Source: Stegostoma tigrinum (Eukaryota). Taken from it: 64,000 nucleotides of DNA. Position numbers and translations under genes: made by a program. The first letter of the stretch is position 1, and each line of letters begins with the position of its first letter. The stretch is from assembly GCF_030684315.1 (NCBI RefSeq), contig NC_081355.1:57087909-57151908 (forward strand). The letters are read 5' to 3'. Of this stretch, positions 14,076 to 54,204 are shown piece after piece. The notes below the pieces were generated by a model. The model saw only the letters and a list, made by a program, of their open reading frames with translations. It was not told the DNA's origin and did not search any database.

Positions 14076-14104
14076 AAGTAACCTTTTCTGGTTTTAGTGG
14101 GTAT

Positions 14105-14437: not shown

Positions 14438-14483
14438 CTATTTAGTAACTTCCACAATTTAACACCTATTATGTCCAGAGAAA

Positions 14484-19257: not shown

Positions 19258-19544
19258 ATATATTTAATCCCAGATAATAAAATGTGAGGCAGGATGAACA
19301 CAGCAGGCCCAGCAGCATCTCAGGAGCACAAAAACTGACGTTTCGGGCCTAGACCCTTCATCAGAGGGTTTAGGCCTGAAACGTCAGCTTTTGTGGCTCT
19401 CTGATGAAGGGTCTAGGCCTGAAACGTCAGCTTTTGTGCTCCTGAGATGCTGCTGGGCCTGCTGTGTTCATCCAGCGTCACATTTTATTATCTTGGATTC
19501 TCCAGCACCTGCAGTTCCCATTATCACTGATATATTTAATCCCA
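19258..19544. mobile_element. Fold-back mini Penelope element with hammerhead cores on both strands and a 15-bp TSD
   Basis: TSD ATATATTTAATCCCA at 19258-19272 and 19530-19544. Inverted arms 19273-19366 and ~19399-19492; 37-nt one-sided tail 19493-19529. Confidence 0.88.
19335..19364 (-). ncRNA. Minimal type I hammerhead ribozyme motif
   Basis: Reverse strand CTGATGA-A-GGG-TCTAGG-CCC-GAAA-CGTC-AG: intact CUGAUGA and GAAA boxes, palindromic ACGT stem III, GUC triplet. Stem I is only about 2 bp. Confidence 0.65.
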
Positions 19545-21000
19545 TAACACTTTTGAGTCTCATACCCATACCTCACAACACACTGTCAGCCTCTCAACTA
19601 TGACACTATCATCACTCAAACATATCATCCATCACAGATACATACTTTTTTTTTCAGGACAAGTGTGCACAACTGAAGGCAAAAGGAACTAACCGGAAAA
19701 AAGATGCACACCTCAACATTCTAACTTTGATGTAAGCGAAAGTGAAGACCACTATTGGTACAGCCATTGCTAAGCTAAACACGGCACATCATTCCAGATG
19801 GATTCCTTGGACTTACTCCTTTTTCTCACATCCAAGTTCCTCCTCATTCCCAATCTCTTTTGACTTGCAAGCTACAGATGGCATAAGCATATACTTCTTA
19901 GCTTCTTTCACTTAACCTTTTTTGTGCAAGTATGTTGTTAGGCCAAGGTATTTTCAGATATGCAAGAATTACAACCTGGCCAGGTAGTGGAAGAACAGCA
20001 AGAAGAGAGGATGATAAAACAGACAATGGTACTGTACTTATCTTAGAGGACTGAAGGTGATTGCATCTACATGTGGAGAAATACCGCAACTGTGGCAATG
20101 GCAGCACAGCCATTTGTATACCAGATGGTGAGGTCACATGCATATTCTGAAGGGGAGGAGGACTTCAGCAGCCAAGCTGCAGAGTGGATTAATGGACATT
20201 CACAACAAAATGTAAGATGCATTAGGAAGCCTGCCAGAATGTCCAGCAGAAAGTGGGCACGGTTCTTTTAACAAAATCTGCAGCCCTTTTTCAAACATAG
20301 AACTGGCGATCAAAACAATTAATGTATTTTTAGAATCAATCATTGATTGTCTGATGGTCCACGTCTTCATTTCTGTTGCAAAGCCCAAATCTTAGGTTGC
20401 CATTCAAGCTGAGACTATCATGCACGGTCAGCTTGCTGCCAAACTCAGACTACTGGCATCACAACCAGTGTTCAAAGGGGCTTTCAAGAATTCATAGCAG
20501 TCCTGGAGTCAGTTACTTAATGAATTGTTAGGAAAACTGAAACAACTGAAAGTGGACACATGGAGATATAACCTGCTTCCTTCTCTGTGGAAGACAAGAT
20601 TTACATGTCATCACTGCTGCTCTGACAATGCTGTTGCCTGTCAGCCAACTTAGACAGTCCAAACTCCCTACCACGCAGACATGGTGCAAACTGAAGTTGT
20701 ATCTTCTAGGCCTGGAGCTGCTGTTTGGAGTCTTCCAAACTGAAATTGAACAACCTGTCACCAGATGTGCTGCAGCCAATGGAGCTGTACAGCTTAGAAC
20801 AACTAGGTCTGACAATGAAACACGGAAGATGGATAATAAGGGTATGCATATGGGTCATTAATTTACATGTGAATGCAACATGCATTATTTCATTCATAAA
20901 TTTGGTAAAGAATGTTTGTTCCTTATGGCTTTTTTTTAACATGTTGGTTAAGAGGAAAATATGGTGATCATTGACAGAGAGAAGTAACTGCGACTGAATA

Positions 21001-21480
21001 GGTGACATTTCGGATCTAGGCCCTTCATCAGAAAAGGGGGATGGGGAGAGGATTCTGAAATAAATAGGGAGAGGGGGAGGCAGACTGAAGATGGATAGAG
21101 GAGAAGATATGTGGAGAGGAGAGTACGGGTGGGGAGGTAGGGAGGGGATAGGTCAGTCCAGGGAGGACGGACAGGTCAAGGGGGGCGGGATGAGGTTAGT
21201 AGGTAGGATCCCGCCCCCTTGACCTGTCCGTCCTCCCTGGACTGACCTATCCCCTCCCCACCCATACTCTCCTCTCCACCTATCTTCTCCTCTATCCATC
21301 TTCAGTCCGCCTCCCCCTCTCTCCCTATTTATTTCAGAATCCTCTCCCAATTTCTGATGAAGGGTCTAGGCCCGAAACATCAGCTTTTGTGCTCCTATGA
21401 TGCTGCTGGGCCTGCTGTGTTCATCCAGCCTCACATTTTATTATCTTGCATTCTCCAGCATCTACAGTTCCCATTATCAC
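21001..21480. mobile_element. Fold-back Penelope pLTR pair, ~190-bp arms diverging from ~21200
   Basis: 21001-21191 is the reverse complement of ~21208-21385. Hammerhead-like cores at 21004-21031 (-) and 21354-21382 (+); tail ends CCCATTATCAC. Confidence 0.85.
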
Positions 21481-22091
21481 AAGTCATACATGATCTTGAT
21501 TTGAGTTATATCACTGTTCCTTCATTATCTTTGGTTCAAAATCCTGAAACACCCTGCTGAATAGTACTGTGGATGCAGCTTCACCACCAAGACTTCAGAT
21601 CATAGAGTTGTACAGCACTACCATCTTCTGATGGGCAGCTAGAAACCACATCCAATGAATATTCTTTAGAAAACAACATAAAACTTGAAATACAGTCAAT
21701 CAAGTATTACAGGATTCCCCCAAACTGGTTCAGGCAGCTGAATCACTGTCTCAGCATGCTGAAAGACTGCTCCATCACATAACCTGCTATAACATGGCCC
21801 TCAATGCATACCTGTTCATGCATGCAAGATTTGTGAACTTGAATCATATTGCACATAATCAGCAGATAGTCCTTGTTGCCTAGTAACCATCTTTTGACTT
21901 TCAGTCATGGCTGAAATATAGCAGGTTTAACATACTGCCACAGGATAAAGGCATTATGATTGCTGCCAGGATACTGGGCACTGACCTGTGTGATGGGTAA
22001 TCACCACCCATCACCTCAAGGAACAAAATCTCATTCAGGTCTATTACGTGGCACAGTTGGCATACAACACCTGCAAAGTAATGTGCCCGCA

Positions 22092-22402
22092 GGGGAGGTG
22101 GTGGTGTAATGATAATGTCACTAGACTAGCAATCCAGAACTTCAAGCCAATGATCTGGGGTCACAAATTTGAATCCTACTATGATATAATTTGAATTCAA
22201 TTCCAAAATATTTGGATTTAAACCCTGGTCTAACAGTGGCCATGTAACCCCTGTTAATTATTGTAAAAACTCACCTGGTTCACTAATGTCCTTTAGGGTA
22301 GGAAATCTGTTGTCCTTACCTGCTGTTAGCTATCTGTGACTCTGGACCCACAGTAATGTGGTTTAGTCTCAAATGCCCCCTAAACAATAAATACTGGCCT
22401 AG
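22092..22402 (+). mobile_element. tRNA-derived SINE sharing a 3' tail with the second LINE family
   Basis: GGGGAGGTGGTGGTGTAATG head, TTTGAATCC B box, core CTGGTTCACTAATGTCCTTTAGGG..GGAAATCTG, tail CAATAAATACTGGCC. Other copies at 27735 and 56012. Confidence 0.75.
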
Positions 22403-23120
22403 AATGTCAAATAAACAATGTTTTGAAAATGGCATCAGCCACTATAGGGAAACCTGCAACATGAGCGATCCCTTCTGTGAACCCTGTCAGCTTCTTTCTT
22501 GTAATAGAGAATAAAATTAGATCTCTTTCAACTCAGCATCATCAGCTTAATGTTTAGTCAACCCCAAAAGACAAGATTCCTCTGATTGCAGTCTGAAAGG
22601 AAATAAGCACATAGAAATATCAACAGCTTCATTATCTGAACAGCTGCAAATGAACACTAATCGAAAGCAAACATTTCGATTTTCAACATTGTGATGGAGG
22701 TAACGTCATTGATGAAGCAGCCGAAAACGTTTGAATCAAGGACAAATCCCTGAAGAACTCCTGTAGAGGTATCCTGGGACTGAGATGATCGGCTTCTAAC
22801 AACCAAGGCCATATTTCTACGTATAACTCCAAACATTGAAGAGTTTTTTTCCTGATTTCCTGTGTTTCTGAACTGATGTCTTAGTTTACTTTTATACTAT
22901 TACAATATCTATTTAATATAAAGGTTCATTGTTACCACTTTCTTGTTTTACTTCGTAAACTGCAGTGTAGTAATGAACAAATATGAATGCATCCAAAAGT
23001 GTACATCAATGCTCATATACATTCAAGAGTAAACTACTGCTATTTCACATCAGTAACTTAAGAGTTTAATGTTTTCAAATCAGTGATTAACAGTGTCCTA
23101 ATCCAAGAGCATAAGCTTAC

Positions 23121-23245
23121 CTTGTTAAGAATATAAATGACATCACCACGTTTAAAAGACAGTTCATCGGACTGATCTCCTGAGCAATCCCACAATCCTT
23201 GGTAGTAATTGGCGTAGTCAGTGGCTTTGTCTTTTTCTTTAATAG
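23121..23245 (-). CDS. SKAP2: Coding exon of SKAP2-like adaptor, N-terminal part of C-terminal SH3 domain ([42 protein letters not shown])
   Basis: Peptide matches the SKAP-family SH3 motif DYANxYQGLWDC...[24 protein letters not shown] is the SKAP2-type sequence as I recall it (SKAP1 has FQRGDLIRIL). Acceptor TTTTGCTTAG| at 23246-47 and donor AAG|GTAAGC at 23120. Length 125 nt, phase 1 to phase 0. Confidence 0.9.
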
Positions 23246-23599
23246 CTAAGCAAAATGTCATTATTATACAGTTAATTAAAACATCCAGTAACAAAGGAAT
23301 AGAAGTATAGACACTTCTACATTTGACCAAGACAGTGCTTTGGAATACAAATCCACAGAGTTAATAGTTGGAAACAAATGGGAAGCAAAAGCATAAATGC
23401 ATTAGAGAGACGGTCAGTCTCCCATCAAAAAGTTTCTGTTGTAGAGAAAACCTTGACTTTATTTTAAAAAGGCAGGTGTTCATATTGTCTAGATGATGGT
23501 TGCTACAGTTTTTATGTATTATGATCTGTTTCATTCACATGAATATATCATTGTCCCAGAGTTCAGTGCAACGGAACACTGGCAGTGATTTCCCTAAGT

Positions 23600-24040
23600 T
23601 GGACCATTGTATTATACTTACCTTTTGTCGTCATCCCTAACTTGAATATTCCCAAGCATACCGAGCTAGTCCCACACATTCCATCCTTGACAATCTTAAG
23701 GTCATCCAAAATTTAGCTGTGTCCTAACCCAAAAGAAATTCCATTCACCCTTCATCCGTGCACTCATTAACCTACGCCAACTCCAGGTGAAGCAATATCT
23801 CAATTTTAAAATCCCTCAGTGTCGTCACCCCTTCCTTTCTGTTATCCCCCATTAGTCCCATAAGCCTTTGAGATGCACTGTTGAACATCCCCACTTTTAA
23901 TCACTCAAAGTGTAAACCTTTAGCTGTATAGGCTCTAGATTTTTGGGATTCTCTCCCTGAACCACTTTGCCTCTTAGACTAAACTTCTGGTCATTTCCCC
24001 CATAGCTCCTAATGTTTCTCGGTTCCCACTTTAATAAGGA
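23600..24040 (+). mobile_element. Degraded L2-like 3' region
   Basis: AGGTCATCCAAAA..GCTG.., CCTACGCCAACTCCAGGT..CAAT..CTCAATTTTAAAATCC resemble L2 ORF2 C-terminal (LHWLPV..RI.FKI) DNA. Confidence 0.45.
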
Positions 24041-24043
24041 CCT

Positions 24044-24555
24044 GAGAAATTCATCAGTGATTGTAAGAACTGCCGATGCTGGAGTCCGAGATAACACAGC
24101 GTGGAGCTGGAGGAACACAGCAGGCGAAGCAGCATCAGAGGAGCAGGAAAGCTGACGTTTCACGTTGAAACAGAGATAATGGGAACCGCAGATGCTGGAG
24201 AATCCGAGATAACAAAGTGTGGAGCTGAATGAACACAGCAGGCCAAGCAGCACCTTAGGAGCACAAAAGCTGATGTTTTGGGCCTAGACCCTTCATCAGA
24301 AAAGGGGGATGGGGAGTCTCCCCATTCCCCTTTTCCGATGAAGGGTCTAGGTCCGAAATGTCACCTTTTGTGCTCCTAAGATGCTGCTTGGCCTGCTGTG
24401 TTATTCCAGCTCCACACTTTGTTATCTCGGATTCTCCAGCATCTGCAGTTCCCATTATCTCTGTTTCAACGTGAAACGTCAACTTTCCTGCTCCTCTGAT
24501 GCTGCCTGGCCTGCTGTGTTCCTCCAGCTTCACACTGTGTTATCGGAGAAATTCA
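24044..24555. mobile_element. Composite fold-back mini Penelope element, 227-bp inverted arms, 10-bp TSD
   Basis: Arms 24090-24316 and 24318-24544 around a 1-nt loop (GGGGAG-T-CTCCCC). 36-nt tail 24054-24089. TSD GAGAAATTCA at 24044-24053 and 24546-24555. Confidence 0.9.
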
Positions 24556-27500
24556 GCAGAATGTTTTATGAAAAGTGATATAGAAATACAAGTTGTTGTG
24601 ATCTCTGATTTTTCAGAAACAAATTTATGCCACAACTTATTGAGAAAATAATTTTATTTGCCTCAAGTATTATGATAGGTTGGGTTAGAGCTACCAATAT
24701 CATACACATCTAAGGAACCAGCACAGAACAAACATGCATGCAATCTGCTAAAGTTGGGACAGTCACAATCTATTTGACAGAACATCCATATAGGGTTTAA
24801 TTTGATAAATGATTATGTACTAAAACCACTGCATAAATATATCAATGAGATATTTTGTTGAAGCTTTCCATCTTGCTCTCAACAGGACAATTCGCAAAAA
24901 TACTAATTTAAGGGGAAAACCAATATTTATATTGTATGAGGAAAGAGTACTGATTGGTTGGAAATTGGATTCTAATTCTGCATTACTACACAGAATTCAT
25001 CATTCAATGATGATTTGTAGTGAACTATCTGGCAGTCGCACAACCATATCTACAACCTATTCTGAAAACGCTATGCACATTTTGATACTTGTGACAAATT
25101 TCACCAAAGTAATATAGACCATTCAAACCATTCTGAAGCAATCAACAACATTCTAAAGTTTAAAAAGCTGCAACATTGTTAATAAAGTATCAATTCACCA
25201 TATTTCCCAATGTTAATGGATCCTTTGAAATAAAGTAGGATCTCAATCACGATCCATATCTTTACCTGAAGCTAATCAGTTCTTATTGGGCTGCATCCTG
25301 CGCAACAAATGTTGTTGAAAATCTTCCTTACTTTGGGAAACTGTGTTTACAAACAGACTTATAAACAAGGGCAACCCTATTACTGCTGTCAACCTCCAGC
25401 TCCAGAGATAAGCTTTAATGTTAAAACATCTATACTTAAGTACTGTTTTTGGTATTATTTAAATTTGGCAAAGGTTAATCTCTATTTAGAATAATTATTT
25501 AGTAGCCCACTTCACTGCAAAACTTTTTGAAAATGCTGATTATTACTGTGGTACATGCTCATGCTGTGAGAATGCATGAAGACCTAGAGCTCAGTTAGAC
25601 AATAACATTGTCAAAAGACATCAGAAGGAATCTTAATATTCATTTATCTCAAATTCACTAATATTGTCTTGTGGTTCTTAAACTGACCAGTAATTTGCTG
25701 ATTGATAGATTTTTAACAAAAGATTTTTTGATCTTTTACAGATGAACTAACTGAAGCCCAACAGTTGGAAGTGTTAATATTTCTAGGGATAGGTCATTTT
25801 GTAATATCCCAAGCTAGCAAGGTCATGAACTTTCTAGATTACCCTGTAACACTATTAAGCAAACAAATTCTGAGGCTATGTTTGATTAACTGTGGCAGTT
25901 TACCTCACAACCTGCAATGTGATGTCTAGCCAGCAGGTCAAGTCGCTTGCTTAATTATGATGCATGCCACAGCTATACATTTAAGCAGATTATTTGTGCA
26001 TATCTCAGAAATTTGTAAAATTGTTTCAGATCACATGACCTCAGTCTGGTTTTGCCTCTCATTATGGGACAATAAAACTGCTATTTGAGAACGTAAAATA
26101 ATTTGAAATTCAATTATTCAAGCAAGATAAGTCTTATTTTCACATGTACTCCATTAGTCTCAACATAGTTCAAGAGCTTATCTAAATAAATTGTCATTGT
26201 TACCAAGTAAAGAACTGATGTCTAAACGTTAATAGACATTTAGTTTGAAAAAGGGTATGTTCACTTCCATGCACTCTCCATGAGGTATAACTTATTTTAC
26301 GTTTTCTTCAAAATAATGATGAATATCCAATTTGTAGATTTTTTTTATAAAGTGTTAGTAGTAATAAAACTACTAAATGCTGTTTGTCCTTGCTTAGATC
26401 TCACTGCAACCGAGTACGGAGTACTCAGAGTCCTTTTTTAAATCTAGAATTGTTCTGAAGTTGGCTGATCAAGTTGCACAAAGTGGACCAATTTATCCAA
26501 ACATCTGATCAAAATAAAAATTCTCAGCTACTTAGCTAAGTGAAAAAAAACGACCCCCTAATGAATTTGAATCAATCAGATACAAATAGTCTAAAATGCA
26601 CACAAGTACTGTAACCACTTCAAAGAGTTTGCCTTTGTGAATTTATATTGTCTGAATGCACTGGATATCAAATTCTGCCTCACTTCAATTTGATATTGTG
26701 TATACTAAATATTAATGAAAGTATGGTGTTTGAACAGATGAATATTTAATAAGGCTAGCTGATATTCTGGTGTAGATTAACTAACAGTTTGGTACTCATT
26801 CAAAAATACATGTACACTCAAAGGAAAAACTATTTTGGTTTAAAAATAATCTAAAACTTTCTTTATGCAAAATAAAAGACAAAAACCAAGTTAAAAGTTT
26901 CACTTCTACATGGTAACTGTTTTTAAGTTTGTAGTCCATAGACAGTTAAAGAAACAGCATTACTGAAATTAAGTCACACAAATCTCAGGAATTTCTCTTG
27001 TATTGTAACATTAATTCTATATGATCAAAACAAGCATTTTGAATAGGTTTCAAAATATGAGATATGGCTTCGTTGTTTCTTTCATGTTTCTTTACTCATG
27101 TCTAATTAAAATGTTTACATTTTTCATTTGATTTTAAGATGCATTTTTCCAAAAACAAAATCAATTTAATAATTGTCTTATTATTTTCCCTTGTCATCCT
27201 CTTGTCTATTCTGAACGTTAGATCATATTTTAAAGGCACTTGGATAAAAACCTGTTTTGGGAAGATTGCAAAAATTGTCTTGCTGCCTAATTTCCTCCTC
27301 TTTTTGGTTCTTCCAGGAAACTCCATCTCACTACTGTTTCGTGCTGTAGCCCAACATGAAGTTATAATCTATTGTGCTTTCATTTTAAAAAAATACTAGT
27401 TTTGGAGGTCAGTTTTTAAAATTCAAAGTGTATGTAGGGATAGATCTGTCTGGCTCAAAGATGTGAAGAAGTTCATATTTGATACAATAAAAATATAAAT

Positions 27501-27734
27501 CATGAGAGAAAGTTTTTAAAATTACTACTCCTGGTGTGCTCTACTGCAGGCCATGACCAAAGGCTGAGAAGGGCAAAACCAACAATATTAGCCAGTCACT
27601 CCACATGTTGAGTGCAATTACAATCAAAGGATGTCAGCCATAGCAGTTACATTATCACAGGTTTCTGAGAGTTCATGTGTAGAATAAGGGCACATGCTGG
27701 TGATCATTTCACAAACTCATTCCAGCAGCTTCCA

Positions 27735-28084
27735 GGGAAGGCAGTGGCCTAGTGGTACTATCACTGGTGTGTTAATCCAGAGACCTAGTTAATGTTCCTG
27801 GGACCTGAGTTTGAATCACACCACAGCCGATAGTAAAATTTCAATTCAATAAAAACGTGGAATTAAGAGTCTAATGATGATGGCAAATCCAGTGCTGATT
27901 GTTGGAAAATTCCATCTGGTTCACTAATGTCCTTTAGGGAGGGAAACTTCCATCCTTATCTACCCATGACTCCAAAAACACAACAATGTGGTTGACTTTT
28001 AACTGACTACTGGGTTATTAGGGATGGGCAACAAATGCTGGCTTAACTAGTGATGCCCTCATCCCTCGAATGAATAAAAAAAAA
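27735..28084 (+). mobile_element. Full-length tRNA-derived SINE (same family as 22092)
   Basis: GGGAAGGCAGTGGCCTAGTGG A box, GAGTTTGAATC B box, CTGGTTCACTAATGTCCTTTAGGG core, GGGATGGGCAACAAATGCTGGC...TGAATAAAAAAAA tail. Confidence 0.8.
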
Positions 28085-28793
28085 TGTTGAGGAAGCCTCT
28101 GTCAGCTGAAGTTCCTAACAGTGGGGGGGGGTTTACCAGGGATCAGTCTAGCGCCAGCCAGAGATGTCATGGGTTTATGCAGAACACTGCATACAAGAGG
28201 GAGGGAGTCCATTCCACATCCTGATATGCAAGAGCCTCTTCTTAACACCTTTAACCTGTATTTGTTTTCCCTCAACACTTCCTCAGGGACCACTGACCTG
28301 TAACCACCACCTTACCCCTACCATGATGTTGGGTTGTGAAATTTGGAGGAGGGTGAATTCAGAAGTGGGGGTAATGGTAAAAAGGAATCAGGTGTGACAT
28401 AATCATATACGATCAGTTTAGTTGCAAGGATACGAGCAGACCAAAACCTGAAATGGAGAAAATATAAAATTCTATTGAAAATGCTCTGATGTTCAAGATT
28501 TCCTTTTTTTCTTTTGCACCTCTACATTTAAAACAATATAGTTATGAAAGGTTCCTCAATGAATGACGGTAATAAGTTTTTTTTTAAAAAGAGGAAACTC
28601 TCATTCATGAATCAAAAATTACCAACATTTAGAATGCTAGTAGTTTGGTACAAGTAGGCAGTACTGATAAAACATAAACCATGATAACTGCAAATATTTT
28701 ATTTGCACTTTAAAAACTTCCAGCAGCTTACGTAGACAATGGTTTCTTCTCTTAAGGCTAAGTGGGACTGAAAATATCTGACATTCTTCAGCA

Positions 28794-38194: not shown

Positions 38195-39745
38195 TGAAAA
38201 TTGGCTCTCTCCATCAACACTTCAGATGTCAGATTGGTCTTCCTGGGAGTCAACCCAAGGAAAGTAATGGGCCCAGCCAGTGTTCCCGGCCAAACACTTG
38301 GTTCTTGTGTGAACCAACTGGTGGAGGCATTCACCGACATTGTCAACTTCTCCCTCCTACAAGCCGAAGTCCCAACCTATTTCAAAAAGGCCACCATCGT
38401 CCTGGTACCTAAGAAAACACATGCAATGTGCCTTAATGACTACTGCCCAGTGGCTCTGACCTCAATAATCATGAAGTGCTTCAAGAGGCTGGCTGTGGCC
38501 CACATCAACTCCCGTCTCCCACCCTGTCTCGATCTCTTCCAATTTGCTGACCATGTAGATGTAAAAGCCAAAAGAGAGTGCCATATCCCCAGCACTGCAC
38601 TCATCTGTGGAACATCTGGACATCAAAGACACCTACGTCAGACTCCTCGTCATTGACTACAGTTCCACCTTCAACACCATTATCCCCTCCAGACTGATCT
38701 CAAAACTCAGTCTTGGACTCTGCCCTCTGCAACTAAATCCTCAGCTTTCTGACTCACAGACTGCAATCAGTGAAGATAGGTAATGGCACCTCCTCCACAA
38801 TAACACTCAACACTGAAGACCTCCCCCACTCCCAAAGATGTGTCCTCATAACCCTATCATACTCCATTTACACCTAAGACTGCATTTGGCAAATTCCAAA
38901 CAAATGCCTTCTACAAGTTGGCTGACAACTCCACTGTAGTGAGATAGATATCTAACAATGACAAGTCAAGCTGCAGAAGAGAGATAAAGGGTTTGTTGAC
39001 ATGATGCAATGAGAACAATCTCAATGCCAGCAAAATGAAAGAACTGATCATTGACTTCAGAAAGAAAGGAGGAAAACATGCCCTCATTTACATCAACGGA
39101 ACTGAGGTTGACTTGGTGAACAGCATCAAGTTCCTTGGAGTGATGATAACCGACAGCCTGTCCTGGACCTCTCATGCAGATGCAACAGTCAAGGCGGCAC
39201 AACAATGCATCATCTTCTACAGGCTGCTCTGGAAATTTTGCATGTCCATAAGGTCCCTCACCAATTTCAAGATGGACAATCGAAAACAGAGTGTTTAAAT
39301 GCCTAACAGCCTGGTATGGCAACTGCCCTGCCTAGGATTGTAAGAAGCTACAGAAGGTGGTGTGCACAGCCCAGACCATCACGGAAGCCAACCTCGCATC
39401 CTTGGACTCCATTTACCCAACTTGCTATTGCAGAAAGGCAACATCAAAGACCCATTGCACCCCAGTAATGACCTCCCACAATGTTGTCCATCAGGCACAA
39501 GATACAGAAGCCTGAACATATACACAAACAGGTTCAGGAACAGCTTCTTCCGAGCCGCTATCAGGCTGATGAATGGACTCTCTAGCATCAAATAACGCTG
39601 ATCTTGCTATATTGATATCACCTAGTTCATACCCTGTGTGATGTGACTTGTATGCCTCTAGGACTTGATTTGCAACTCCTTTGCTTACTATGATCAGTCT
39701 GTACCACTTGTAAACAAGCTTTTCACTGTAATTTGGTACACATGA
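38195..39745 (+). mobile_element. Rex1/Babar non-LTR retrotransposon, 5'-truncated and frameshifted
   Basis: ORF 38201-38656 (NPRKVMGP..VPG..L..C..QL...FTDI.N.SL...VP.YFKKATIVLVPKK...LNDYCPVALTSIIMKCFKRL) and 39035 (KELIIDFRK...KFLGVMI...LSW). 3' tail TTTTCACTGTA...CATGACAATAAATCAAAT. Confidence 0.85.
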
Positions 39746-39998: not shown

Positions 39999-40082
39999 GT
40001 CTAGGCCCGAAATGTCAGCTTTTGTGCTCCTGAGATGCTGCTTGGCCTGCTGGGTTCGTCCAGCTTCACACTTTGTTATCTC
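39999..40082 (+). mobile_element. Solo Penelope pLTR fragment
   Basis: GTCTAGGCCCGAAATGTCAGCTTTTGTGCTCCTGAGATGCTGC...CACACTTTGTTATC. Confidence 0.8.
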
Positions 40083-40496: not shown

Positions 40497-40623
40497 TACC
40501 ACTGTCTGAGATAACAAAGTGTGGAGCTGGATGAACGCAGCAGGCCAAGCAGCATCTCAGGAGCACAAGAGCTGACGTTTCGGGCCTAGACATTTCATCA
40601 GAGAGGAGATACCACTGTCTGAG
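40497..40623 (-). mobile_element. Solo ~100-bp Penelope pLTR with TSD and decayed hammerhead
   Basis: TACCACTGTCTGAG repeated at 40497-40510 and 40610-40623. Reverse strand reads CTGATGAAATGTCTAGGCCCGAAACGTCAG. Confidence 0.82.
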
Positions 40624-44200: not shown

Positions 44201-45309
44201 ACATTTACATGAATACACTGAAAAGTTTAACAAGTCACCCCACCACTGCACTCTACTTCAATGACAGAAATCGTACTCAATAATAAAACAAAAAGTAAAA
44301 TTAAGACAGAGTTCAAGACAGTTCAGTTAGTGGCTCTTGGAAAGCTGATTAGGGAATGATGGAATATCCTGAAGACACATCCGGGATGAGACCACCATTC
44401 CAGGACGAGACCACCACTGGGCCAGAAGCCAGTGACTGTGATTCCGCATCAAGTTTGCAATGACAGTGGAAAGGACAAGGAATCTGACGGGGGGATGGGG
44501 TGGGTCAAGAAAGAGTTGGCTGCGATGGAGCAAGCGTGGAGTTGGGCCAGATAAACTGAAGTGAAGGCAGATGGGAAAAGGTATAGCTGAACAATGGGAT
44601 ACCTTCAAAGAAGATGTGGTTTGAACATAGTAGCTGAGCGATATACTCTCAAAGGGGAAAAGAAGACAAAACAAACACAAAGTTCCTTGGATGAAACAGG
44701 AAATAGAAACTGAAATAAAGAAAAAGTGTACTTACAACAAACAACATTCCCTCTAAGCTGTTCAGAGGGTCCATCAACACAATCAGTGTGTGGATGCATT
44801 GATTTGCAGTTTCAAAAGTTGCTGCTGTACGCAGACCTGCATAGCAGCAAGAAAAATTAGGAGTGATGTAGACGACGAGTTTCAGACAGAAAATACAACT
44901 GAAAACCAAGTTAAACAGAGAAGAATCAGAAGGGAAGTTAAGGTAAAGTAAATAAAAGCGGAAGAAGGGATTATGAGAAAAGACTAACAACTAACATTAA
45001 ACGGGAATTCCAAAATTGTCTACAGGTATAAAAACAACAAAAGAATGGTAAGAGGAGGAATAGGGACGAAAAAAAGACTTGCATATAGAGGCGGTGGCAT
45101 GGCTGAGCTGTTAAACAAATATTTTGCATTTGCCCTTGCTAACAAAGATGCCATCCAAGACATAGTGACAGTCACTAGAGGGATTTAAAATTACTTAAGG
45201 TGGTGTACTGGACAGGCTGTTGGTACTTCAAGTCAGTAAGTTGCTGGTGCCAGATGAGATGCACCAAAACTCATGTAAGGACAAGACAGTAGAAATTACA
45301 GAGAAGAAT

Positions 45310-46082
45310 CCCAGGCCCTAAGAAGACCTTCCACATCAAACAGATGTTCACCAGCAAATCTGCTAATGTGGTATACTGTATCCGCTGTTCCCGTTGTGAC
45401 TTCCTCTATATCGAGGAAACCGAGCAGAGGCTTGGGGGCCGCTTTGTGGAACACCTATGCTAGGTTTGCATCAAACAACTACACCTCCCAATCGTAAACT
45501 ATTTCACCTCCCACTCCTTGGATGACATGTCCATCCTGGGCCTCCTGCATTGCCTCAATGATGCCACCCGAAGGCCACAGGAACAGCATCTCATATTTCA
45601 CTTGGGAACAGTGCAGCCCAATGGTATCAACATGGACTCCACAGCTTCAAAATCTCCCCTTACCTGACTGCATCCCAAAACTAGCTCATCTTAACCCCGC
45701 CTCCCTAGCCCTCGCACCTCAAGCCCCAACTCCATCTCCTACCCACTAACATCATCCCACCTCCATAACCTGTCCGTCCTCCCTGGACCAACCTATCCCC
45801 TCCGTAACTCCCCACCTACATTCACCTTTATTGGCTCCAACCCCACCTCTTTGACCTGTCTGTCTCCTCTCCAACTATCTTCTCCTTTATCCATCTTCTA
45901 TCCGCCTCCCGCTTTCTCCCTATATGTTTCAGAATCCCCTTTCCCTCCTCCATTTCTGAAGAAGAATCTCGACCCGAAACGTCAGCTTTCCTGCTCCTCT
46001 GATGCTGCTTGGCCTGCTGTGTTCGTCCAGCTCTACACCTTGTTATCTCAGATTCTCCAGCATCGGCAGTTCCTACTATCTC
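45310..46082 (+). mobile_element. Penelope-like element 3' fragment (GIY-YIG remnant, pLTR and tail)
   Basis: Paralogous to 13315-14070 (GTGGTATACTGTATCCGCTG..CTCTATATCGAGGAAACC..). Decayed core CTGAAGA...GACCCGAAACGTCAG at ~45956-45985. Tail GATTCTCCAGCATCGGCAGTTCCTACTATC. Confidence 0.88.
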
Positions 46083-46933
46083 GGAAATTGCAGAGGCACT
46101 GGCAAGTTTTTCAATGTCACCTCAACTCGGGAATGGTGGCACAAGGGTGGAGAATTACAAACGGAACGCTTATTATAACAATGTGATTCCAGGCCAAAGC
46201 ACTGCCATGAACTTCCACCTGCGCTCTGGCATGGCCTAATAACCCCCTTAGTTGTGACAGTACACTAACTCCACCCAATCCTGCAAAGTCACTAACACCT
46301 GAGGAGATGTGTCCCACAGACGAGTAAAACAACAGCCTGCCACATTCATCTTCTCATACCATATGGCCAATGTCCCGGCCCCCTCTTTCACAATCTCTTA
46401 GTTTGCCCTGCACTGTAGCCAGAGGTGGCTACACAGCAATATGCAGTTGCATGGTACTAATACTGAAAATTCTTAACATTAAAACTAGACTGCGTGAAGA
46501 CTCATAGCTTCAAGCCAAACCTAGCAAGGAAATCTCCTACTGATTACCACATTCTGCCCACCCTTCGCTGATAATCAGTATTACTCCACAATAAACATCA
46601 CTTGGTAGTAAAATTGAGAATAGCATAAGCACAAAATATACTCTAGGTAGGGGGATTTAGTGTCTGTCATCAAGAGTGGCTTGGTAGAACCAATGTTTCT
46701 TGCCTTCAATCCCATTTAGGTTTCCTGATGTCACACTCTGCCAAAAGCTGTCTTAATGCCAAAAGGTCTGTACCACCTGAAATCACCCTTGAGTGGATAG
46801 CTCTTTTATCCATGTTTGGACGAAGGCTGTAATGCAGTCAGGAGCTGAGTGGCCCTGGCAAAACTCAAACCAAGTACCAGAGAGCAGGCTAGTTGCAAAA
46901 ATGTTAGTTGATGGCATTGTCTATTACACCTTC

Positions 46934-47162
46934 CATTACTGTCAATACAGTGTGGAGCGTGAGGAACACAGCAGGTCAGCAGCATCAAAGGATCAGGAAA
47001 GTCGATGTTTCGGGTTTACACCCTTCATCAGGGCTGGCTGCACACTGGGTGCGCACCTGAAACATCAATATTCATGCTCCTCTGATGCTGCCTGACTTGC
47101 TGTGTTCCTCCAGCTCCACACTGTATTGACTCCAACTCCAGCATCTGCAACATTCATTACTG
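46934..47162. mobile_element. Fold-back mini Penelope element (older subfamily) nested in a minus-strand LINE fragment (~46760-47900)
   Basis: Arms ~46941-47015 and ~47055-47130; CATTACTG repeated at 46934-46941 and 47155-47162. Minus-strand core CTGATGA-A-GGGT-GTAA-ACCC-GAAA-CATC at 47004-47031. Confidence 0.8.
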
Positions 47163-48618
47163 CACTGATGACTGAGGGCAGATTGATGCAATTGTAATTG
47201 ATTGGGTTAGATTTGTCCTATTGGTTTGTGCGCAGGTTATACCTGGATAGTCTTCCACATTGCCGGTAAATGCCTGTGATGTAGTTGCAAGGGACAGCTT
47301 CATTTGGGCATTACTAGTTTTGAAGCACAAGTCTTCATACGCTATCAGGGCCTACTGTCTTTGCTGTATCTAATGTCTTCAGCTATTTGAGCCATTACAT
47401 AGAACGCATCAAAATGGCTGAAGATGGGCACCTGCAATGGTGGGGATCTCAAGAGAAGGTGGAAATAGATCCTTCACTTGACATTACAGGTTGTGCATGA
47501 TTAAAATGTCTCAGCCCTGCTGTTAGCACTGACATGCTGGGTTCTCCCATTATTAAGAATGGGAATGTTTCTGCAGCTTCCTGCTCCGGTTTGTTGTTTA
47601 AATTCCCACAAACATTCACAGCCTAATATGGCAGGACTGCAGTTCAATCTTAGTTACTAGTAGTGGGTTTGCTTAGCTCCACCTGTAGCATTCTGCTAAT
47701 GCTGTTTGGCAATGCAAGTATTCCTGTGATGTAGTTTCATCAGGTTTTGCACATTAGTTTTAGCTATGCCCAATGCTGCTCCTAGCTTTCTCTCTTGGAT
47801 TCGTTGTTGAAACAGAATTGATATCCTGGCTTTATGGTAATGGAAAAATGAGGGATTTGCTAGGCCAAGAGGTTATAGATTGTGGTTGCTTCTTGAGAAA
47901 AGTGACAAAGCAGCAATATTACTGGACTAATGTTGCTTTGAGGACACCTGTGTAAATCCCACTATAGCAGCTGGTATAATTTATGTTCAATTATTAAATC
48001 TGAAGTTAAAAACTATGAAATCATGAATGATTAGATTATCCTTAAAAAAACTCATCTGGTTCAGTTTAGGGAGGGTAACTTACCATCTTTACGTTGTCTG
48101 GCCTTTTCGTGAATCCAGCCCGTAGAAGCAAGATAATCTATACCAGATGAATTGCAATGATTGAAGACACCAGCTCATCAAAGCCTCCATATAGGCAATT
48201 CTCACATCCCATTAAAGAAAACAAAGCTATGGACTTAAACGTGATGCAGCATCTGATTGTCAATGCTGCAGCTTCCACTACATCAGCAGCAGCAAGCTGA
48301 TGCTTGATTTCTGCTGTGGGAGCTCAAACAATTACCAGCATGTCTATGGAGCACTGCATGCAAAGAGGGCTGTATGGTGTCACTGCTGTCCAGAAATATA
48401 ACCTTCTACTGATTGCTGGGATTGCCAAAGTATCACCCAGAGCTTCTCTGAGAGGAAGACAGCATGCGTCCTCCCACAATCATCTGCCAATGCCCTTGCT
48501 GTTACCCATCAACCAGATAGGGGAGATTGCTGCTTTCCCTCAAAGTTGACGCAGTATTCAGGTAGGCCAATAGGCACCATTCACAACCAGTCGTAAGCAG
48601 TTCTTGCACTGTTCTACG

Positions 48619-48745
48619 TCACAGATGGCCCTGTAGCAGATGGCAGATTTCAGTGAGGACGTTCTTTCTGAAGTGCAAACATCTCATCAGTTGCTCCTCA
48701 CTGTTGTCCGGAAAGCAGAACTGCTCTTTGTAAAAATTGTGCCTA
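48619..48745 (-). mobile_element. Possible PIF/Harbinger transposase remnant
   Basis: Peptide SEEQLMRCLHFRKNVLTEICHLLQ resembles the N-terminal helix region of Harbinger (HARBI1-like) transposases; short and decayed. Confidence 0.4.
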
Positions 48746-50319
48746 TTTTTTTTCCATGGACTAGTGACCAATTTTAAATGAAAAGGCCTTTTGCCTGCCA
48801 ACAACTGTGTGATTGGTACCCAGGTAACTGAATAGTTTAGGATTAGCAGCAAATTAGGGAAAATTGTTTTAATCTTCACCAGCACAAATGCTGTCTCCCT
48901 CTATTCTCTGCACTTAAAATCTATTTCAAACTTGAAGGAAAGCAGTTCATCGTTCCTTTAGAAGTTGTAAGCTGTAACCTTTCATTGCAGTACCCTTGTG
49001 TCTCTTGAAAACCATTGGTAGCATCCAAAGACTGACGATTGCAAAGCAACATTCTGACCAGCATAAGATCATAAAGATTATCTCAGCAGCCTGTGAACAG
49101 ACACTCCACTGCTCTTAATCTACTTGCCTTGTCTGTTTGTTTGTGTGTTTTTAAAGGGTAGTTTAAAATGGGATTAAAGTTTTAATTTGTAACATTAAAC
49201 ATTGATGGGGTTTAAATGTTTTCCTGTAGTAAGAATCAAATTGCTTATCATAAATAGGATTTCTTGTCAAGTGCATTCACATGGTCTGTGCTTTCTATTA
49301 ATCTGGGTCTGAAAATCTGGTAAATTGGGGGATTTGTGTACTTACTTTAAAATCTTTAACTTTTATGACAACTTTGGGAATAATGAGGCTTGAGTTCTAA
49401 CATCCTAACCCAGTGCATTGTGACATCTCTAACTGATGTGGACAGATAGTGCTTTTTGAGAGCCCTCCTTTCCCTACTACTCCCAGCAGCTTTCCCTGCT
49501 GTGTACTGTGTCTGCTCTTTCTCCAAGTTGAGCTGTATTCTCAGGGTAATGTCTAGTGGTACTACACTCAGGTCTGGGAGTAATCAGTTTTACAGAAGCC
49601 TTGAAGTCAACATTGACTCTTTTAACATCCATCACACCCCTGCTTGAAGATTCTTACAACTTTAAACAACTTTATCAAGCACCAAACATGTGTAGAACTA
49701 AGAGCCCGAAGTAATCAACCAGAGACCAACCTTTAAGAAATTGACCATCCCTTTAAATAGGACCACTTGTGGATTTGATTGGGTTGCCTTTCCGACTGCC
49801 AGTAGTTGTGCAGGCAGCATGACAACTTCATGTTATCTATTCACGTCAACAATTTATTTCCATGTTAACTAGCTGCATGCAACAAAAGAATCTAATGTTA
49901 ACAGTGGAAGCGCCATTTAAGGTAGCCTTCAAATCAAGGTGAGGTTATGGGGGGGCAATGAAGCCAGGCCATGACCGACAGTCATGCAGGAGTGATTCTC
50001 ATTCAGGACACAAAGAAGAATGGAACAAGATATAAAGCAACTGTGACTTATGCAGAAATTATGAATTCAGCAAAGATTCCTGAAACAGCTGCCACAGCAC
50101 TCACTGTAAACTAACAGCAACACTAGAAATGATGTGAAACATTGTGCAGCTGTAGAATTGAAGTAGAAGCAGAAGATAACAAACAGCAATTAACCTGTCA
50201 GTCGTTTATAGGTCCCTATTAAACAGCACTGGCATGAGGTTCCTCCTGCGTCTGAACACATGTTCAGCTGTATGAGGCTAAGAAAAAAGTATTTGCTGAG
50301 GCCTGCATCTCTGCAGAGT

Positions 50320-51740
50320 TCCTCACGGTAACGTCCCCAGTCCAACTATGTCAGCTGCCTCATCAATGACATTACCTCAAAAGTGAGAATGTTCAACACT
50401 ATTTGTAACTCCTCAGATACTGAGGTAATCCATTCCCATATTCAGCAAGACGTAGACAATATCAAGGTTTGGGCCACCAAGAAATAAGTAACATCTGCCT
50501 ATCTCAAATGTCAGGCAAGGACCATCTCCGACAAGACAGAATTGCCTATTGACATTCAATGGCAGTACCCTGCTTTCAAAATCTTCAGTGGAGGTGGTGT
50601 GGTTAAAATTGGTCAGAAACTGAACTAGCATTAGAATTAACTTTATTGTGGCATGTACTCAAATAAGTGCAGTCAAAAATTTACAAGTCACCACTTACAC
50701 CACCATCTTAGGTACAAAAGGTATCTAACGTACAGATTTTTTAGTACAAATTCTCTGGGAAAAGAAATTAGAAAAATTCAGAAATAAAAAGTCCAGGATT
50801 TCAGATCACAGGAATAGATTTGAAAAATAAAGAAATAAAAAGTTCAGAATAACAGTCCTGCAACCCAGTTCATGCCAGCACCTAGCCTCTGGCCTGCACC
50901 GGGCTTTGATACCAGGCCAAGGCAGGCTTCACCTAGAGGCTGGAAGACCGCTCTGGAATCATCTCGAGGCCACACTGAGCTGAAATACTTCCATGTCGGG
51001 CCGAGAGATCACTATGCCAGGCCTGTACTGAGGCTGGGAGTTCAGGACATTGCCAAGAAAAGATGGAACAAAAACATGAGAGAGGAAGAAAAAGAGAGAA
51101 GAAAAGAAACGGATGGAGACTATGAGCTCCTGCTGAAGAGTCCCATTCTACCGTCATCTTGCTTGCAACTAGACTAGCCATATTAACACTGCAACTTAAA
51201 ACAGCTGGTCAGAGGATAGGAATCTTGCAGGGAATAACACATCCCTTGATTCCATAAGCATGTCTACTATCTACATAGTCAGCAGTATGATGGAATACTC
51301 ACCATTTGCATAGTGACAACAACACTCTAGAATCTTGAAACCATTCAGGACAAAGCAGCCCACTTGGTTTGCACCATATCCACAAGTAGCAGCAGCAGTA
51401 GGAGCATCTACAAGGTCTACTGCAGAAATTCACCAAGGCTCCTTAGACAGGATTTTGCAAACTCACAATCATTGCCAGAAGGACAAGGCATGTGGGGCAT
51501 CAACACTTCCAAGATCACCGTCCAAGCAACTTGCAACCTTGACTTGGAAATGTATTGTCGTTCCTTCAGTATCATATCAGTCAATTAAAATCCCAGAACA
51601 CCCTCCCTTGCAGTACTGTGGATCTATCTACAGCAAACGAACTGCTGCAGTTTAAGGAGGCATCTCACCACCACCTTCTCAAGGTCAACTAGATTGGGCA
51701 ATAAATGCTGGGCCAGGCAGTGATGTCCAAACCTCATGAG
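50320..51740 (+). mobile_element. CR1/L2-group LINE 3' portion, interrupted at ~50632-51168
   Basis: CAGCTGCCTCATCAATGAC (SCFIND), GGAATACTC.CCA.TTGC, ending CACCACCACCTTCTCAAGG..AACTAG..TGGGCAATAAATGCTGG, the tail shared with the 27735 SINE. Confidence 0.7.
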
Positions 51741-52242
51741 CATATAGCAAGAAAAGCTCCAAAATAGTGCTGCTGAGGTGAAATTAACATTATATGTTCA
51801 TTGATATCATGACCTGTTTGCTCTGCATTCTTCCAGTGGCATGCCAAAATCCTTACCAAGATGGTGTCGGGTAATTCACCCACAAAATGTGGACACGTGC
51901 CACAGGCATTATTTTGGGGCTGTAAGTGCTTTTGCAACAAAGGCAAAAATGATCTAAATTTCACATTCAAAATGTAGCACTTGAATTATTCTTAAGTCTC
52001 ATTTAGAATCAACAGAATCTGAGAATGCATAATGGTTCTATTTGCAATTGGTAACCTTGAATCTGATGATAGTTTGAATTATCTCAGTGCTAATTTTCCA
52101 CTTGTGAAGGTACATAGCTGAATAACTGAAATAATTCATGATAGTGCTTTATGCTTTATGCAGATCATGCAGTTAATGCAGGAAACGAGCCACGTTCACA
52201 TTTGATTCAATCAATTCTGGCAGCATAGGTGATGAAAAAAGG

Positions 52243-52400
52243 CAGAGTTAATGTTTCGGGTCTGGTGACCCTTCCTCAGAACAGTGGACCTGAAACGTTA
52301 ACTTTGATTTTTTTTCTACAGATGCTGCCAGACCTGCTGAGCTTCCAGCAACTTCTGTTTTGTTCCTGATTTACAGCATCCGCAGTTCTTTCGGTTTTAA
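52243..52400. mobile_element. Mini Penelope-type element of a third subfamily with short fold-back
   Basis: AGAGTTAATGTTTCGGGTC / GACCTGAAACGTTAACTTTG inverted pair, then CAGATGCTGCCAGACCTGCTGAG...CAGCATCCGCAGTTCTT. Confidence 0.7.
52247..52282 (-). ncRNA. Minimal type I hammerhead ribozyme motif
   Basis: Reverse strand GTT-CTGAGGA-A-GGGTC-ACCA-GACCC-GAAA-CATT-AAC: 3-bp stem I (GTT/AAC), 5-bp stem II, both core boxes intact. Stem III ACAT is probably CpG-decayed from ACGT, which is retained in the sister arm. Confidence 0.65.
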
Positions 52401-53979
52401 TTCCATTAATTTGTTGATATCATGCAAAGGTTCATGCTCACTGCATTTTTCACCATCTTTAATACTCAAAGCCTTAATTTCTAAAGCATTAGTTTGGAAC
52501 TTAAATAGGTAATTTCCAGTATAGTCACTGAAATGTTGAAGCTAATTTGTATATATACAAGTTCCCAAAAACAGCAATGTGTTTACAACCATATGATGGG
52601 TTTTAGCGAAGCTGTTTAAGGCTAAATATTGGTCACAACTCTGGGACTACCTTCATGTCCTTCGCTGAGTGAAGGGTGTTGGTATGTAGTCTGCCTGCTT
52701 TCCTTTCAACTAATTGCTGTCTTACAGTCATGTTTGAGAATGTCTGTTTGAGAACATAGTAGCAGAGGAAGTTGAAAATTAAATAATGGATTAAACTAAT
52801 GAAGTCAACTGTCAGCAGTGTTGTGAGATTTCAGAAGAGGATGGGTGTGTCAAGGTTTGTTTGGTGACAGGGAAACCCTGGATAGTTAATTTGGAAATGT
52901 TTTGTTTCAAACACAATACTTATATGAACATCCTGTTTATAAAATTATTTATTTCAGTAAAATCATCTGTTGGATTATCCAAGTTTGATAAATTCTCTTT
53001 GAATTTAGTTTATTCCTGAAATAGGCTGTCAGCTGCTTGAAGATTATTGTATTTCCTGAAAATATTTATAATCAGTAAGACTCCATGAAAATTATTTCTC
53101 ACTCGTACGTGCAAGAAAAAAAAAACCATGGATCAATCAAACTGTTGGCAATAATCTGCTCCAGACTAATATTAAGCCACAGAGGGAAGAAACCAATTAG
53201 GGGACAAAAGATCAAAATGGCAGCATTCAAATCTCTAAATCACAGTCGAGGGAAAGAAGCAGAAAACAATAAACTGCATTAAAAAAATTAGGAAACTTCA
53301 AGCAACATAAAAAAAAAGTAGTCGTCCTTTCTTTGTATTTATGCACCACACACCTTTGACAGCACTGAGATGTACTGTTCAGGTGAAGTTGGCAGAATTA
53401 ACAGTTGCCTTCATTAGGCAATTTGTCTTAAATACCAAACTAAGAAAAGTTCATGGAGAAAAACAAATATGAACTCAATGATAACAACAAAAAAGATTTT
53501 AACCGAAGTTGCTCTACAGATTTATCTAAAGGAAATAATGTTTACAATTCATTAATTGAGTTCACCTGGTTTGAGGTTTCAATTAAATGAATGACATCAA
53601 ATGTTGAAAAAGACCATCTGCAAATCCATTTAAGGTTGTAAGCATTTATTGAATTTCCATGAAAACAATCTTTAATTGAAATATATGAATTGCTTGAATT
53701 CCATGAAAATATATATATTTCTTACTGAAAGACATTTATGCAATTAGCAAATGCAAGACTTGAAATCAAAGAAGTAAAGATTAAGGCAAAATAGGAGAAA
53801 TTGAGATTGTCTTATTCATTAACGAATTCAAGTTATTTTTTATTTTAAGTAAAAAAACTGTCATTTATGTAAATGCTACAGGGTGAAGACATTTTCAAAA
53901 AATGGGATCTGTACTTTTCTAACTTAGACAACTTAGGCAAATATTTCCCTCAGAGTAATGTTCAACATGAAAAGCAAAG

Positions 53980-54204
53980 GAAATAACAATGGTGATAGCA
54001 AGAACTGCAGATGCTGGAGTCAGAGATAACACAGTGTGGAGCTACAGGAACACAGCAGGCCAGGTAGCATCAGAGAAGCAGGAAAGTTTACGTTTCGGGT
54101 CATTTCTGAAGAAGGGTCTTGACCCGAAATGTCAACTTTCCTGCTCCTCCGAAGCTGCCTGGCCTGCTGTGTTCCTCTAGCTCCACACTATGAAATAACA
54201 ATGG
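53980..54204. mobile_element. Fold-back mini Penelope element with 13-bp TSD
   Basis: GAAATAACAATGG at 53980-53992 and 54192-54204; tail on the left. Plus-strand core CTGAAGA-A-GGGTC-TT-GACCC-GAAA-TGTC at 54106-54133. Confidence 0.87.

What the first reader, a model, noticed from the sequence alone, without database searches (positions are those of the whole stretch)
19258..54204. Family of non-coding fold-back mini-retroelements built from Penelope pLTRs, each carrying hammerhead ribozyme cores
Seen: at least six independent insertions (19258-19544, 21001-21480, 24044-24555, 46934-47162, 52243-52400, 53980-54204) share one design. An inverted copy of the Penelope 3' terminus folds back near the hammerhead motif into a forward copy, and a tail of up to ~37 nt lies on one side only. 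Four have 8-15 bp TSDs and none has coding sequence. Established: Penelope-like elements have pseudo-LTRs in direct or inverted orientation, a 30-40 nt tail and minimal type I hammerheads. Inference: these may be a non-autonomous, MITE-looking but retrotransposed family (retrozyme-like) mobilised by the Neptune-type RT/GIY-YIG elements at 12617 and 45310. Alternatively they are extreme 5'-truncation/inversion products. About one per 10 kb here, from three or more subfamilies, suggests a long-lived and abundant system.
Basis: partly seen in the sequence, partly recalled or inferred. Interest (0 to 1): 0.8.

Follow-up and report, generated by a model that had tools for sequence, protein, structure and literature searches.

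The report
Fold-back stubs of Penelope retrotransposons
These short hairpin-shaped insertions are dead-end stubs left again and again by an ordinary Penelope-type jumping gene, not a self-copying family, but their shared starting point appears to record where that gene's RNA begins and how it is copied.

Summary
The six hairpins are real. They are head-to-head pairs of Penelope-like element (PLE) 3' ends with variable 8-19 bp target duplications, about one per 21 kb. This anatomy is published for PLEs, and the scan noted it in two other genomes. The idea that the hairpin itself replicates is not supported. One centre recurs 695 times, but 40 such copies carry the tail on either arm (18:20) and span at least five haplotypes, so the junction forms repeatedly. 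ORF-bearing copies carry the same fold-back, and the two ribozyme cores lie on opposite strands. Added here: 5' ends pile up 1-8 nt before the hammerhead core (29 of 94 young arms, against 2 in the 89 nt upstream). Copies starting at -4 have an extra G before them in 70 of 100 cases (control 21 of 100; second subfamily weaker, 37 of 100). I infer that RT primes twice near the capped 5' end of the element's RNA, runs off after 100-130 nt, and joins the two short cDNAs. No RNA data tested this.

The parts
19258..19544 (.). Fold-back 1: TSD 19258-19272/19530-19544; inverted arm 19273-19366 (-2..+95, no tail); direct piece 19365-19395 (+7..+35); G at 19396 not templated by the element; forward arm 19397-19529 (-4..+128, tail)
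19401..19428 (+). Minimal type I hammerhead core CTGATGA-A-stem II-GAAAC-GTC; a second core on the - strand starts at 19364
   Evidence: matches the min-HHR features described in PMC4209133
20997..21480 (.). Fold-back 2: inverted arm 20997-21208 (-178..+36, pLTR end missing), forward arm 21207-21480 (-162..+126, tail); no TSD; same junction in one other locus (L112, 88% identical overall)
24044..24555 (.). Fold-back 3: 10-bp TSD; each arm is a composite (subfamily-1 pLTR+tail from -18/-17, then a subfamily-2 pLTR stub from about +10); outer tail on the inverted arm only; composite junction found at high identity only in its own two arms; no intact hammerhead core
46934..47162 (.). Fold-back 4 (older subfamily): 8-bp TSD; inverted arm about 46942-47033 (-2..+91); 21-nt spacer; forward arm 47055-47154 (+16..+121, tail)
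52245..52400 (.). Fold-back 5 (oldest subfamily): inverted stub about 52245-52283 (-4..+35) with a core on the - strand at 52279; forward arm about 52285-52400; no TSD
53980..54204 (.). Fold-back 6: 13-bp TSD; inverted arm 53993-54101 (+14..+126, tail); forward arm 54101-54191 (-5..+87) with core at 54106
12333..14077 (+). 5'-truncated, frameshifted Neptune-type PLE copy (end of RT, GIY-YIG, 3' UTR, pLTR to +89), with an inverted tail piece at 12333-12388
45309..46083 (+). 5'-truncated PLE copy: endonuclease fragment, 3' UTR, pLTR and tail; no RT
5161..5286 (+). Solo pLTR+tail stub (+7..+127)
39999..40082 (+). Solo pLTR stub (+8..+93)
40497..40623 (-). Solo pLTR stub (about -6..+96) with a 14-bp TSD

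Best explanation
The hairpins are one-off, dead-on-arrival insertions made by an autonomous Neptune-type PLE. Steps: (1) The element's RNA starts about 4 nt before the hammerhead core in the upstream pLTR (fixed DNA end shown; capped RNA start inferred). (2) The GIY-YIG nuclease makes a staggered cut about 14-16 nt wide (TSDs shown). (3) RT primes from both cut strands at the two internal start sites that bound the tail, +127 on one side and +93 on the other, usually on the same RNA or source element (one-sided tails and matching arms shown; priming inferred from PAc biochemistry). (4) Each RT runs off the RNA 5' end after only about 100-130 nt, often adding a C opposite the cap (inferred). 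(5) The two cDNA 3' ends are joined bluntly or through 1-3 nt of microhomology after some trimming, giving a head-to-head hairpin centred at the hammerhead (junction spectrum shown). The same process with one product gives solo pLTR stubs; with longer cDNAs it gives the known long copies with an inverted pLTR. Some hairpins (24044) look like snap-back copying of the first cDNA instead.
For: Continuum: in 600 kb there are 33 two-ended fold-backs of 117-1382 bp and 71 direct-only units among 123 units, 10 of them dropped at stretch edges. An inverted pLTR end lies upstream of the RT body in 7 of 14 long copies. In 12 of 39 copies carrying the ORF start, the 5' pLTR begins at -5..+5, and 5 of these have a short inverted arm right next to it (one weak). 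Tail on exactly one arm: 29 of 33 (p 6e-6 against independence) and 38 of 40. Junction variety: 12,706 matches (some counted on both strands) with many different 0-14 nt linkers; 3 same-junction pairs among 2346 pairs of 69 centres (by inspection). Identical centres are not clonal: tail on arm A 18, arm B 20, none 2, both 0; 5 haplotypes among 25 scorable units; arms match within a unit in 21 of 25 against 39% between units. 5' cliff: 29 of 94 young arms start at -10..0, 2 at -99..-11 (25 of 132 arms dropped for identity under 88%). Extra G before -4 starts: 70 of the first 100 of 3,924 matches, against 21 of 100 at a control start (+13), p 3e-12 (hand counts). In 20 fetched copies, 18 have G: by eye 7 are templated by neither target nor element, 5 coincide with a G of the target or the other arm, and 6 are unresolved. 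The tail-less arm often reaches further 5' than the tailed arm, which a simple copy of the tailed cDNA cannot give. Literature: PAc cleaves and extends both strands, starts RT at two internal sites bounding the tail, and needs about 55 nt of RNA beyond the tail (PMC11167929), sequence that these stubs lack. A 5' untemplated G is linked to cap copying in L1 (PMC9341517).
Against: No RNA evidence: the start site and cap are inferred from DNA only. The G excess is weaker in a second subfamily (37 of 100; 21 of 42 when preceded by T; A dominates at 55 of 100, probably from fold-back centres, not checked). The control start is not matched in flanking letters and may include point mutants of longer copies. 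Rare variants are shared with the partner arm only modestly (8 of 82, against 4.0 for the nearest five other arms). In 24044 both arms share a private composite junction and end one base apart, which fits snap-back better than two independent cDNAs. Later one-sided deletion at hairpin centres could mimic unequal arms. PAc is a Poseidon-clade element; its biochemistry is carried over to a Neptune-type element by analogy.
Confidence: 0.72

Rival explanations
1. The hairpin is itself the replicating unit: a non-autonomous, retrozyme-like or SINE-like family mobilised in trans by PLE proteins.
For: One exact centre occurs 695 times; sizes cluster at 117-243 bp in 28 of 33; pLTR sequences alone were reported sufficient for mobilisation in trans in a rotifer (PMC3846280); tandem retrozymes derive from pLTRs (bioRxiv 2026.07.22.740005).
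Against: Identical-centre copies have the tail on either arm 18:20, also within the commonest haplotype (9:5 by eye), and several haplotypes. A master hairpin cannot move its tail to the other arm. The same centres head ORF-bearing copies. Cores lie on opposite strands, and the predicted fold pairs the arms over them. Searches with the centres of 24044 and 21001 gave 0 and 1 other same-junction locus among 40 scored candidates each.
Confidence: 0.05
2. One cDNA per insertion: RT copies from the tail, stops, and the cDNA folds back and copies itself (self-priming), with later trimming or deletion at the centre.
For: 24044 has a private junction in both arms and a 1-nt loop; arms match in haplotype in 21 of 25; self-priming was proposed for head-to-head PLE palindromes (PMC3846280).
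Against: The tail-less arm is often the longer one at the centre (e.g. +49/+4, +69/0, -167/-412). With one fixed asymmetric centre the tail falls on either arm equally. In a few units the two arms differ in haplotype (L214, L234).
Confidence: 0.15
3. The -4 cliff is an RT pause or drop-off site inside a longer read-through RNA (end of the ribozyme fold or pyrimidine tract), with terminal-transferase C addition, and not a transcription start.
For: About a quarter of young arms (27 of 94) extend beyond -100; the G excess is weaker in the second subfamily; TCT-like initiator matches occur at five places in the last 370 nt of the profile, so the one at -5 is not distinctive (motif recalled).
Against: The end is sharp, is shared by solo, fold-back and ORF-start copies, and the G excess is absent at an internal control start.
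Confidence: 0.2
4. DNA-transposon MITE with terminal inverted repeats.
For: Short, non-coding, inverted ends, high copy number.
Against: TSDs vary from 9 to 19 bp, mode 14-16; ends are asymmetric; arms are the 3' end of RT/GIY-YIG elements.
Confidence: 0.01

Closest known systems
Complex insertions of canonical EN+ PLEs: inverted 5'-truncated copy next to the pLTR plus a 30-40 bp tail on one end (PMC8557442, PMC3846280, PMC2377424; passages read)
   Same: Head-to-head inverted pLTR, one-sided tail, TSD of about 8-16 bp, palindromic junctions, heavy 5' truncation
   Different: Here most units lack any ORF. 5' ends pile up at one site 4 nt before the hammerhead core, with an extra G; I did not see this described (searches).
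Minimal hammerheads of metazoan PLEs (PMC4209133; results and discussion read)
   Same: Unpaired base before helix II, G10.1-C11.1 pair, palindromic 15.2-16.2, short helix I. That paper already notes dual motifs 100-700 bp apart on opposite strands in Schistosoma and mostly single motifs from truncated PLEs.
   Different: Helix I is only 2 bp in the young subfamilies here; cleavage was not tested.
PAc (Poseidon of Anolis) in vitro mechanism (PMC11167929; main text read)
   Same: Two RT start sites bounding the tail about 110-130 nt downstream of the hammerhead; both strands cut and extended
   Different: Different clade (Neptune-type here); the main text does not describe head-to-head joining, a fixed 5' run-off end or strand transfer.
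Non-LTR retrozymes (PMC7229834, passages; bioRxiv 2026.07.22.740005, abstract to discussion)
   Same: Non-coding, pLTR-related, hammerhead-bearing, dispersed
   Different: Retrozymes are head-to-tail tandems with same-strand ribozymes that release monomers and circles; these units are head-to-head with at most one core per strand.
L1 twin priming, and minus-strand strong-stop DNA of LTR elements (both recalled; cap-derived G from PMC9341517 passage)
   Same: Both target strands prime cDNA joined by microhomology; a short cDNA made from the RNA 5' end
   Different: L1 twin priming inverts an internal part and does not duplicate the 3' end; LTR elements use a tRNA primer and an integrase.

Membership tests
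EN+ Penelope-like element insertion | Arms are the 3' end of an RT + C-terminal GIY-YIG element | tested here: met
   PF01541; PF00078
EN+ Penelope-like element insertion | Inverted 5'-truncated copy adjacent at the 5' end | tested here: met
   33 two-ended fold-backs in 600 kb; 7 of 14 long copies
EN+ Penelope-like element insertion | 30-40 bp tail on one end only | tested here: met
   29 of 33, 38 of 40
EN+ Penelope-like element insertion | Variable TSD | tested here: met
   21 of 33 with 9 bp or more; chance 4 of 400
Neptune/Nematis clade | CX2-5CxxC motif between RT and EN | tested here: met
   8 of 11 long copies (definition). Neptune was not separated from Nematis: no RT tree was made.
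Minimal type I hammerhead of PLEs | CUGANGA core, extra base, helix II, GAAA, palindromic 15.2-16.2, NUH | tested here: met
   Helix II kept with changing loops across subfamilies; no Rfam hit
Minimal type I hammerhead of PLEs | Self-cleavage (as dimer) | not testable with these tools
   Only 5 of 94 young arms start at +27..+32, no clear peak at the cleavage site
Non-LTR retrozyme | Head-to-tail units with two or more same-strand hammerheads | tested here: not met
Non-LTR retrozyme | Monomeric linear and circular RNA | not testable with these tools
   No usable RNA run
Non-autonomous retroelement family (clonal unit) | Copies descend from a master with the same centre, ends and diagnostic bases | tested here: not met
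   40 of 695 identical-centre copies: tail side 18:20, 5 haplotypes; only one junction was tested this way
DNA-transposon MITE | Fixed short TSD and symmetric terminal inverted repeats | tested here: not met
Catalogued Dfam/Repbase entry | Match to a named family | not testable with these tools
   Neither library is available

The most novel reading that the evidence does not exclude
PLEs use an LTR-like strong-stop step. RT binds just downstream of the upstream pLTR near the capped 5' end of the RNA, primes both target strands at the two tail sites, and makes 100-130 nt cDNAs. These are either joined head to head (the hairpins), inserted alone (solo pLTRs), or transferred to the 3' pLTR of the RNA to give long and full-length copies. 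That would explain how pseudo-LTRs are regenerated and why inverted pLTRs and one-sided tails occur. The strand-transfer step has no direct support here; the only sign of jumping from the -4 end is short direct pieces placed before G-CTCTCTGA (window 19365-19397; L240, L253).
Probability: 0.4. Interest if true: 0.72.

Novelty: new member of a known kind. Interest (0 to 1): 0.4.

Why it matters
As an element class this is ordinary: it is the known PLE insertion anatomy at its shortest, and annotators should not call it a MITE or a retrozyme. Its value is as a record of mechanism. The PLE copying cycle is unresolved (PMC2377424 saw no obvious way to regenerate pseudo-LTRs; PMC11167929 leaves the later steps untested). 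Roughly 150,000 short hairpins (my extrapolation of 28 per 600 kb to 3.2 Gb) point to a specific RNA start, two priming sites and a joining rule, each of which can be tested with CAGE and the existing in vitro assay.

Tried and rejected
Rfam scan: only generic hairpin (miRNA-like) matches below gathering score, no hammerhead. RNA runs: no RNA holder listed, so no reads were laid; this says nothing about expression. Nested independent insertion for 24044: rejected, since the inner part has a tail on both arms and the junction is shared by both arms. The identical centre in L008/L016 is one duplicated locus (99.9% over 3.1 kb) and was counted once. Ribozyme cleavage as the source of the 5' ends: the cliff is at -4, not at +28. 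A splice junction at -4 (an intron ends at helix I in D. virilis): rejected, as there is no AG before -4 in long copies. The rare-variant test of shared templates was weak. A larger unbiased sample and the second 20 of 40 planned '-4' loci were not obtained, so the flank check rests on 20 loci. Literature searches found no description of a strong-stop or cap-derived G in PLEs or of these units in cartilaginous fishes; the library lacks most subscription journals, and no supplements were read (those of PMC11167929 and PMC4209133 may bear on the 5' end and on fish motifs).
Full report
Setting. The window lies in a 3.2-Gb animal genome. Its repeats resemble those of cartilaginous fishes; that is recalled and echoed by two earlier notes, not tested. 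Positions in the element are given relative to the C of the hammerhead core CTGAnGA (=0), using a profile built from 46 long natural copies. Those copies end either at about +93 (pLTR end) or about +127 (tail end).

Observation. All six places hold an inverted and a forward copy of this terminus. Four have the stated TSDs of 15, 10, 8 and 13 bp. 21001 folds at -162/-178 and its inverted arm lacks the pLTR end. 52243 has only a stub of an inverted arm. 24044 is a two-subfamily composite with no intact core. 19258 has an extra direct piece. The motif fits the minimal PLE hammerhead of PMC4209133, though Rfam does not detect it. The neighbours at 12617 and 45310 are truncated fragments. Their family has RT and GIY-YIG domains and the Neptune/Nematis linker motif in 8 of 11 copies.

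Census. In 60 unbiased 10-kb stretches the profile found 123 units: 71 direct-only, 33 two-ended fold-backs, 4 internal inversions, 1 complex, 4 without a 3' end, and 10 at stretch edges that were set aside. Fold-backs are 117-1382 bp, and 28 are under 300 bp. TSDs of 9 bp or more occur in 21 of 33, against 4 of 400 random positions. The tail is on exactly one arm in 29 of 33 (p 6e-6). Long RT-bearing copies show the same inverted end in 7 of 14. This anatomy is described for PLEs in general (PMC8557442; PMC3846280), and opposite-strand hammerhead pairs 100-700 bp apart were noted in Schistosoma.

Does the hairpin replicate? Searches with two window centres scored 40 candidates each (of 668 and 309). 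None shared the junction of 24044, and one shared that of 21001. Among 69 centres, 7 of 2346 pairs matched at 42 of 50 or more, and 3 are the same junction by inspection. One of these junctions occurs 695 times as an exact 27-mer, within 12,706 matches that allow a 0-14 nt linker and show many different linkers. The centre is asymmetric, so a master copy would pass on its tail side. The tail was on arm A in 18, arm B in 20, neither in 2 and both in 0. There were five haplotypes among 25 scorable units, and the two arms of a unit matched in 21 of 25 against 39% between units. The junction therefore forms afresh, from one source element at a time. The retrozyme reading also fails on structure: retrozymes are head-to-tail tandems, whereas these cores are on opposite strands and the predicted fold pairs the arms across them.

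Why the centres sit at the hammerhead. Of 94 young arms in the unbiased set (arms under 88% identity to a long copy were dropped: 25 of 132, window included), 29 start at -10..0, 2 at -99..-11, 27 further upstream and 36 at +1 or later. Copies that carry the ORF start show the same end: 12 of 39 have a 5' pLTR beginning at -5..+5, five of them with a short inverted arm next to it. So the hairpin is also the head of the full-length insertion. The genome holds 3,924 exact matches starting at -4 with two non-templated letters before; in the first 100 the adjacent base is G 70, T 19, A 11 (hand count). At an internal control start it is G in 21 of 100 (p 3e-12). In 20 fetched copies the G is often templated by neither target nor element, or coincides with a G that could pair with an added C; window position 19396 is such a G. 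A second subfamily gives a weaker excess: 37 of 100, or 21 of 42 after T. An untemplated 5' G is associated with cap copying in L1. I read -4 as the RNA's 5' end; this is inference, with no RNA data.

Mechanism. In vitro, the lizard PLE protein PAc cuts and extends both strands, starts RT at two sites bounding the tail, needs RNA beyond the tail, and is predicted to be a dimer. Applied here: RT primes both target strands near the 5' end of the RNA, at +127 and +93, runs off at -4, and the two cDNAs are joined with short microhomology. This accounts for the one-sided tail, the size, the centre, the recurring junctions and the solo stubs. It also predicts that hairpins are dead ends, because they lack the ORF-start sequence. 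Two independent cDNAs are favoured because the tail-less arm is often the longer one and because tail side is independent of centre asymmetry. Against this, 24044 has a private composite junction in both arms, which fits snap-back copying, and the rare-variant test was weak (8 of 82 against 4.0). Whether long copies arise by transfer of the short cDNA to the 3' pLTR or from read-through tandem RNAs is open.

Papers seen: bioRxiv 10.64898/2026.07.22.740005, parts 1-3 of 5; PMC11167929, parts 1-2 of 4; PMC4209133, abstract, results and discussion; passages only of PMC8557442, PMC3846280, PMC2377424, PMC6155905, PMC7229834 and PMC9341517. No supplements were read. L1 twin priming, LTR strong-stop DNA and the TCT initiator are recalled.

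Verdict. A real and abundant feature; a new member of a known kind; not a self-replicating family. The fixed 5' end with an extra G was not found in print in five searches and makes the PLE copying cycle directly testable. Interest 0.4.

Noticed in passing
L152:474-640: In this ORF-start copy a 27-codon frame beginning in the pLTR ends at a TGA at the tail end and is in frame with the main ORF, whose first ATG follows 13 codons later. Upstream ORF or read-through; not examined.
   Followed up: no
L031-L090: The tailed arm is the left one on the assembly + strand in 22 of 29 fold-backs (p 0.008), though strand is arbitrary. The window shows the opposite trend. Unexplained, possibly chance.
   Followed up: partly
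window 24054-24545: Both arms share a private junction between two subfamilies; best case for snap-back copying after a template switch.
   Followed up: yes
L042, L059, L067, L088 and others: Many long copies share a recurring junction at about -285/-240, an internal duplication or insertion of one subfamily at the end of the ORF.
   Followed up: no
window 5868-7241 (-): Broken LINE-type reverse transcriptase frames; they look CR1-like from memory, not tested.
   Followed up: no
window 38198-39331: Further RT-like LINE fragments, not identified.
   Followed up: no
window 11296-11500, 14103-14671, 27734-28084, 56015-56365, 56790-57755: Other dispersed repeats of 66-75% identity, not examined.
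   Followed up: no
L008 and L016: 3.1 kb at 99.9% identity on a small contig and on C2: an assembly duplicate or a recent duplication.
   Followed up: partly
L152:1350-1520 (approx.): The N-terminal part of the PLE ORF holds a variable-length tandem repeat (PPTAD-like units) that differs among copies.
   Followed up: no
L062: 10-kb stretch made almost wholly of CA-rich simple repeat; it was left in the 600-kb denominator.
   Followed up: no
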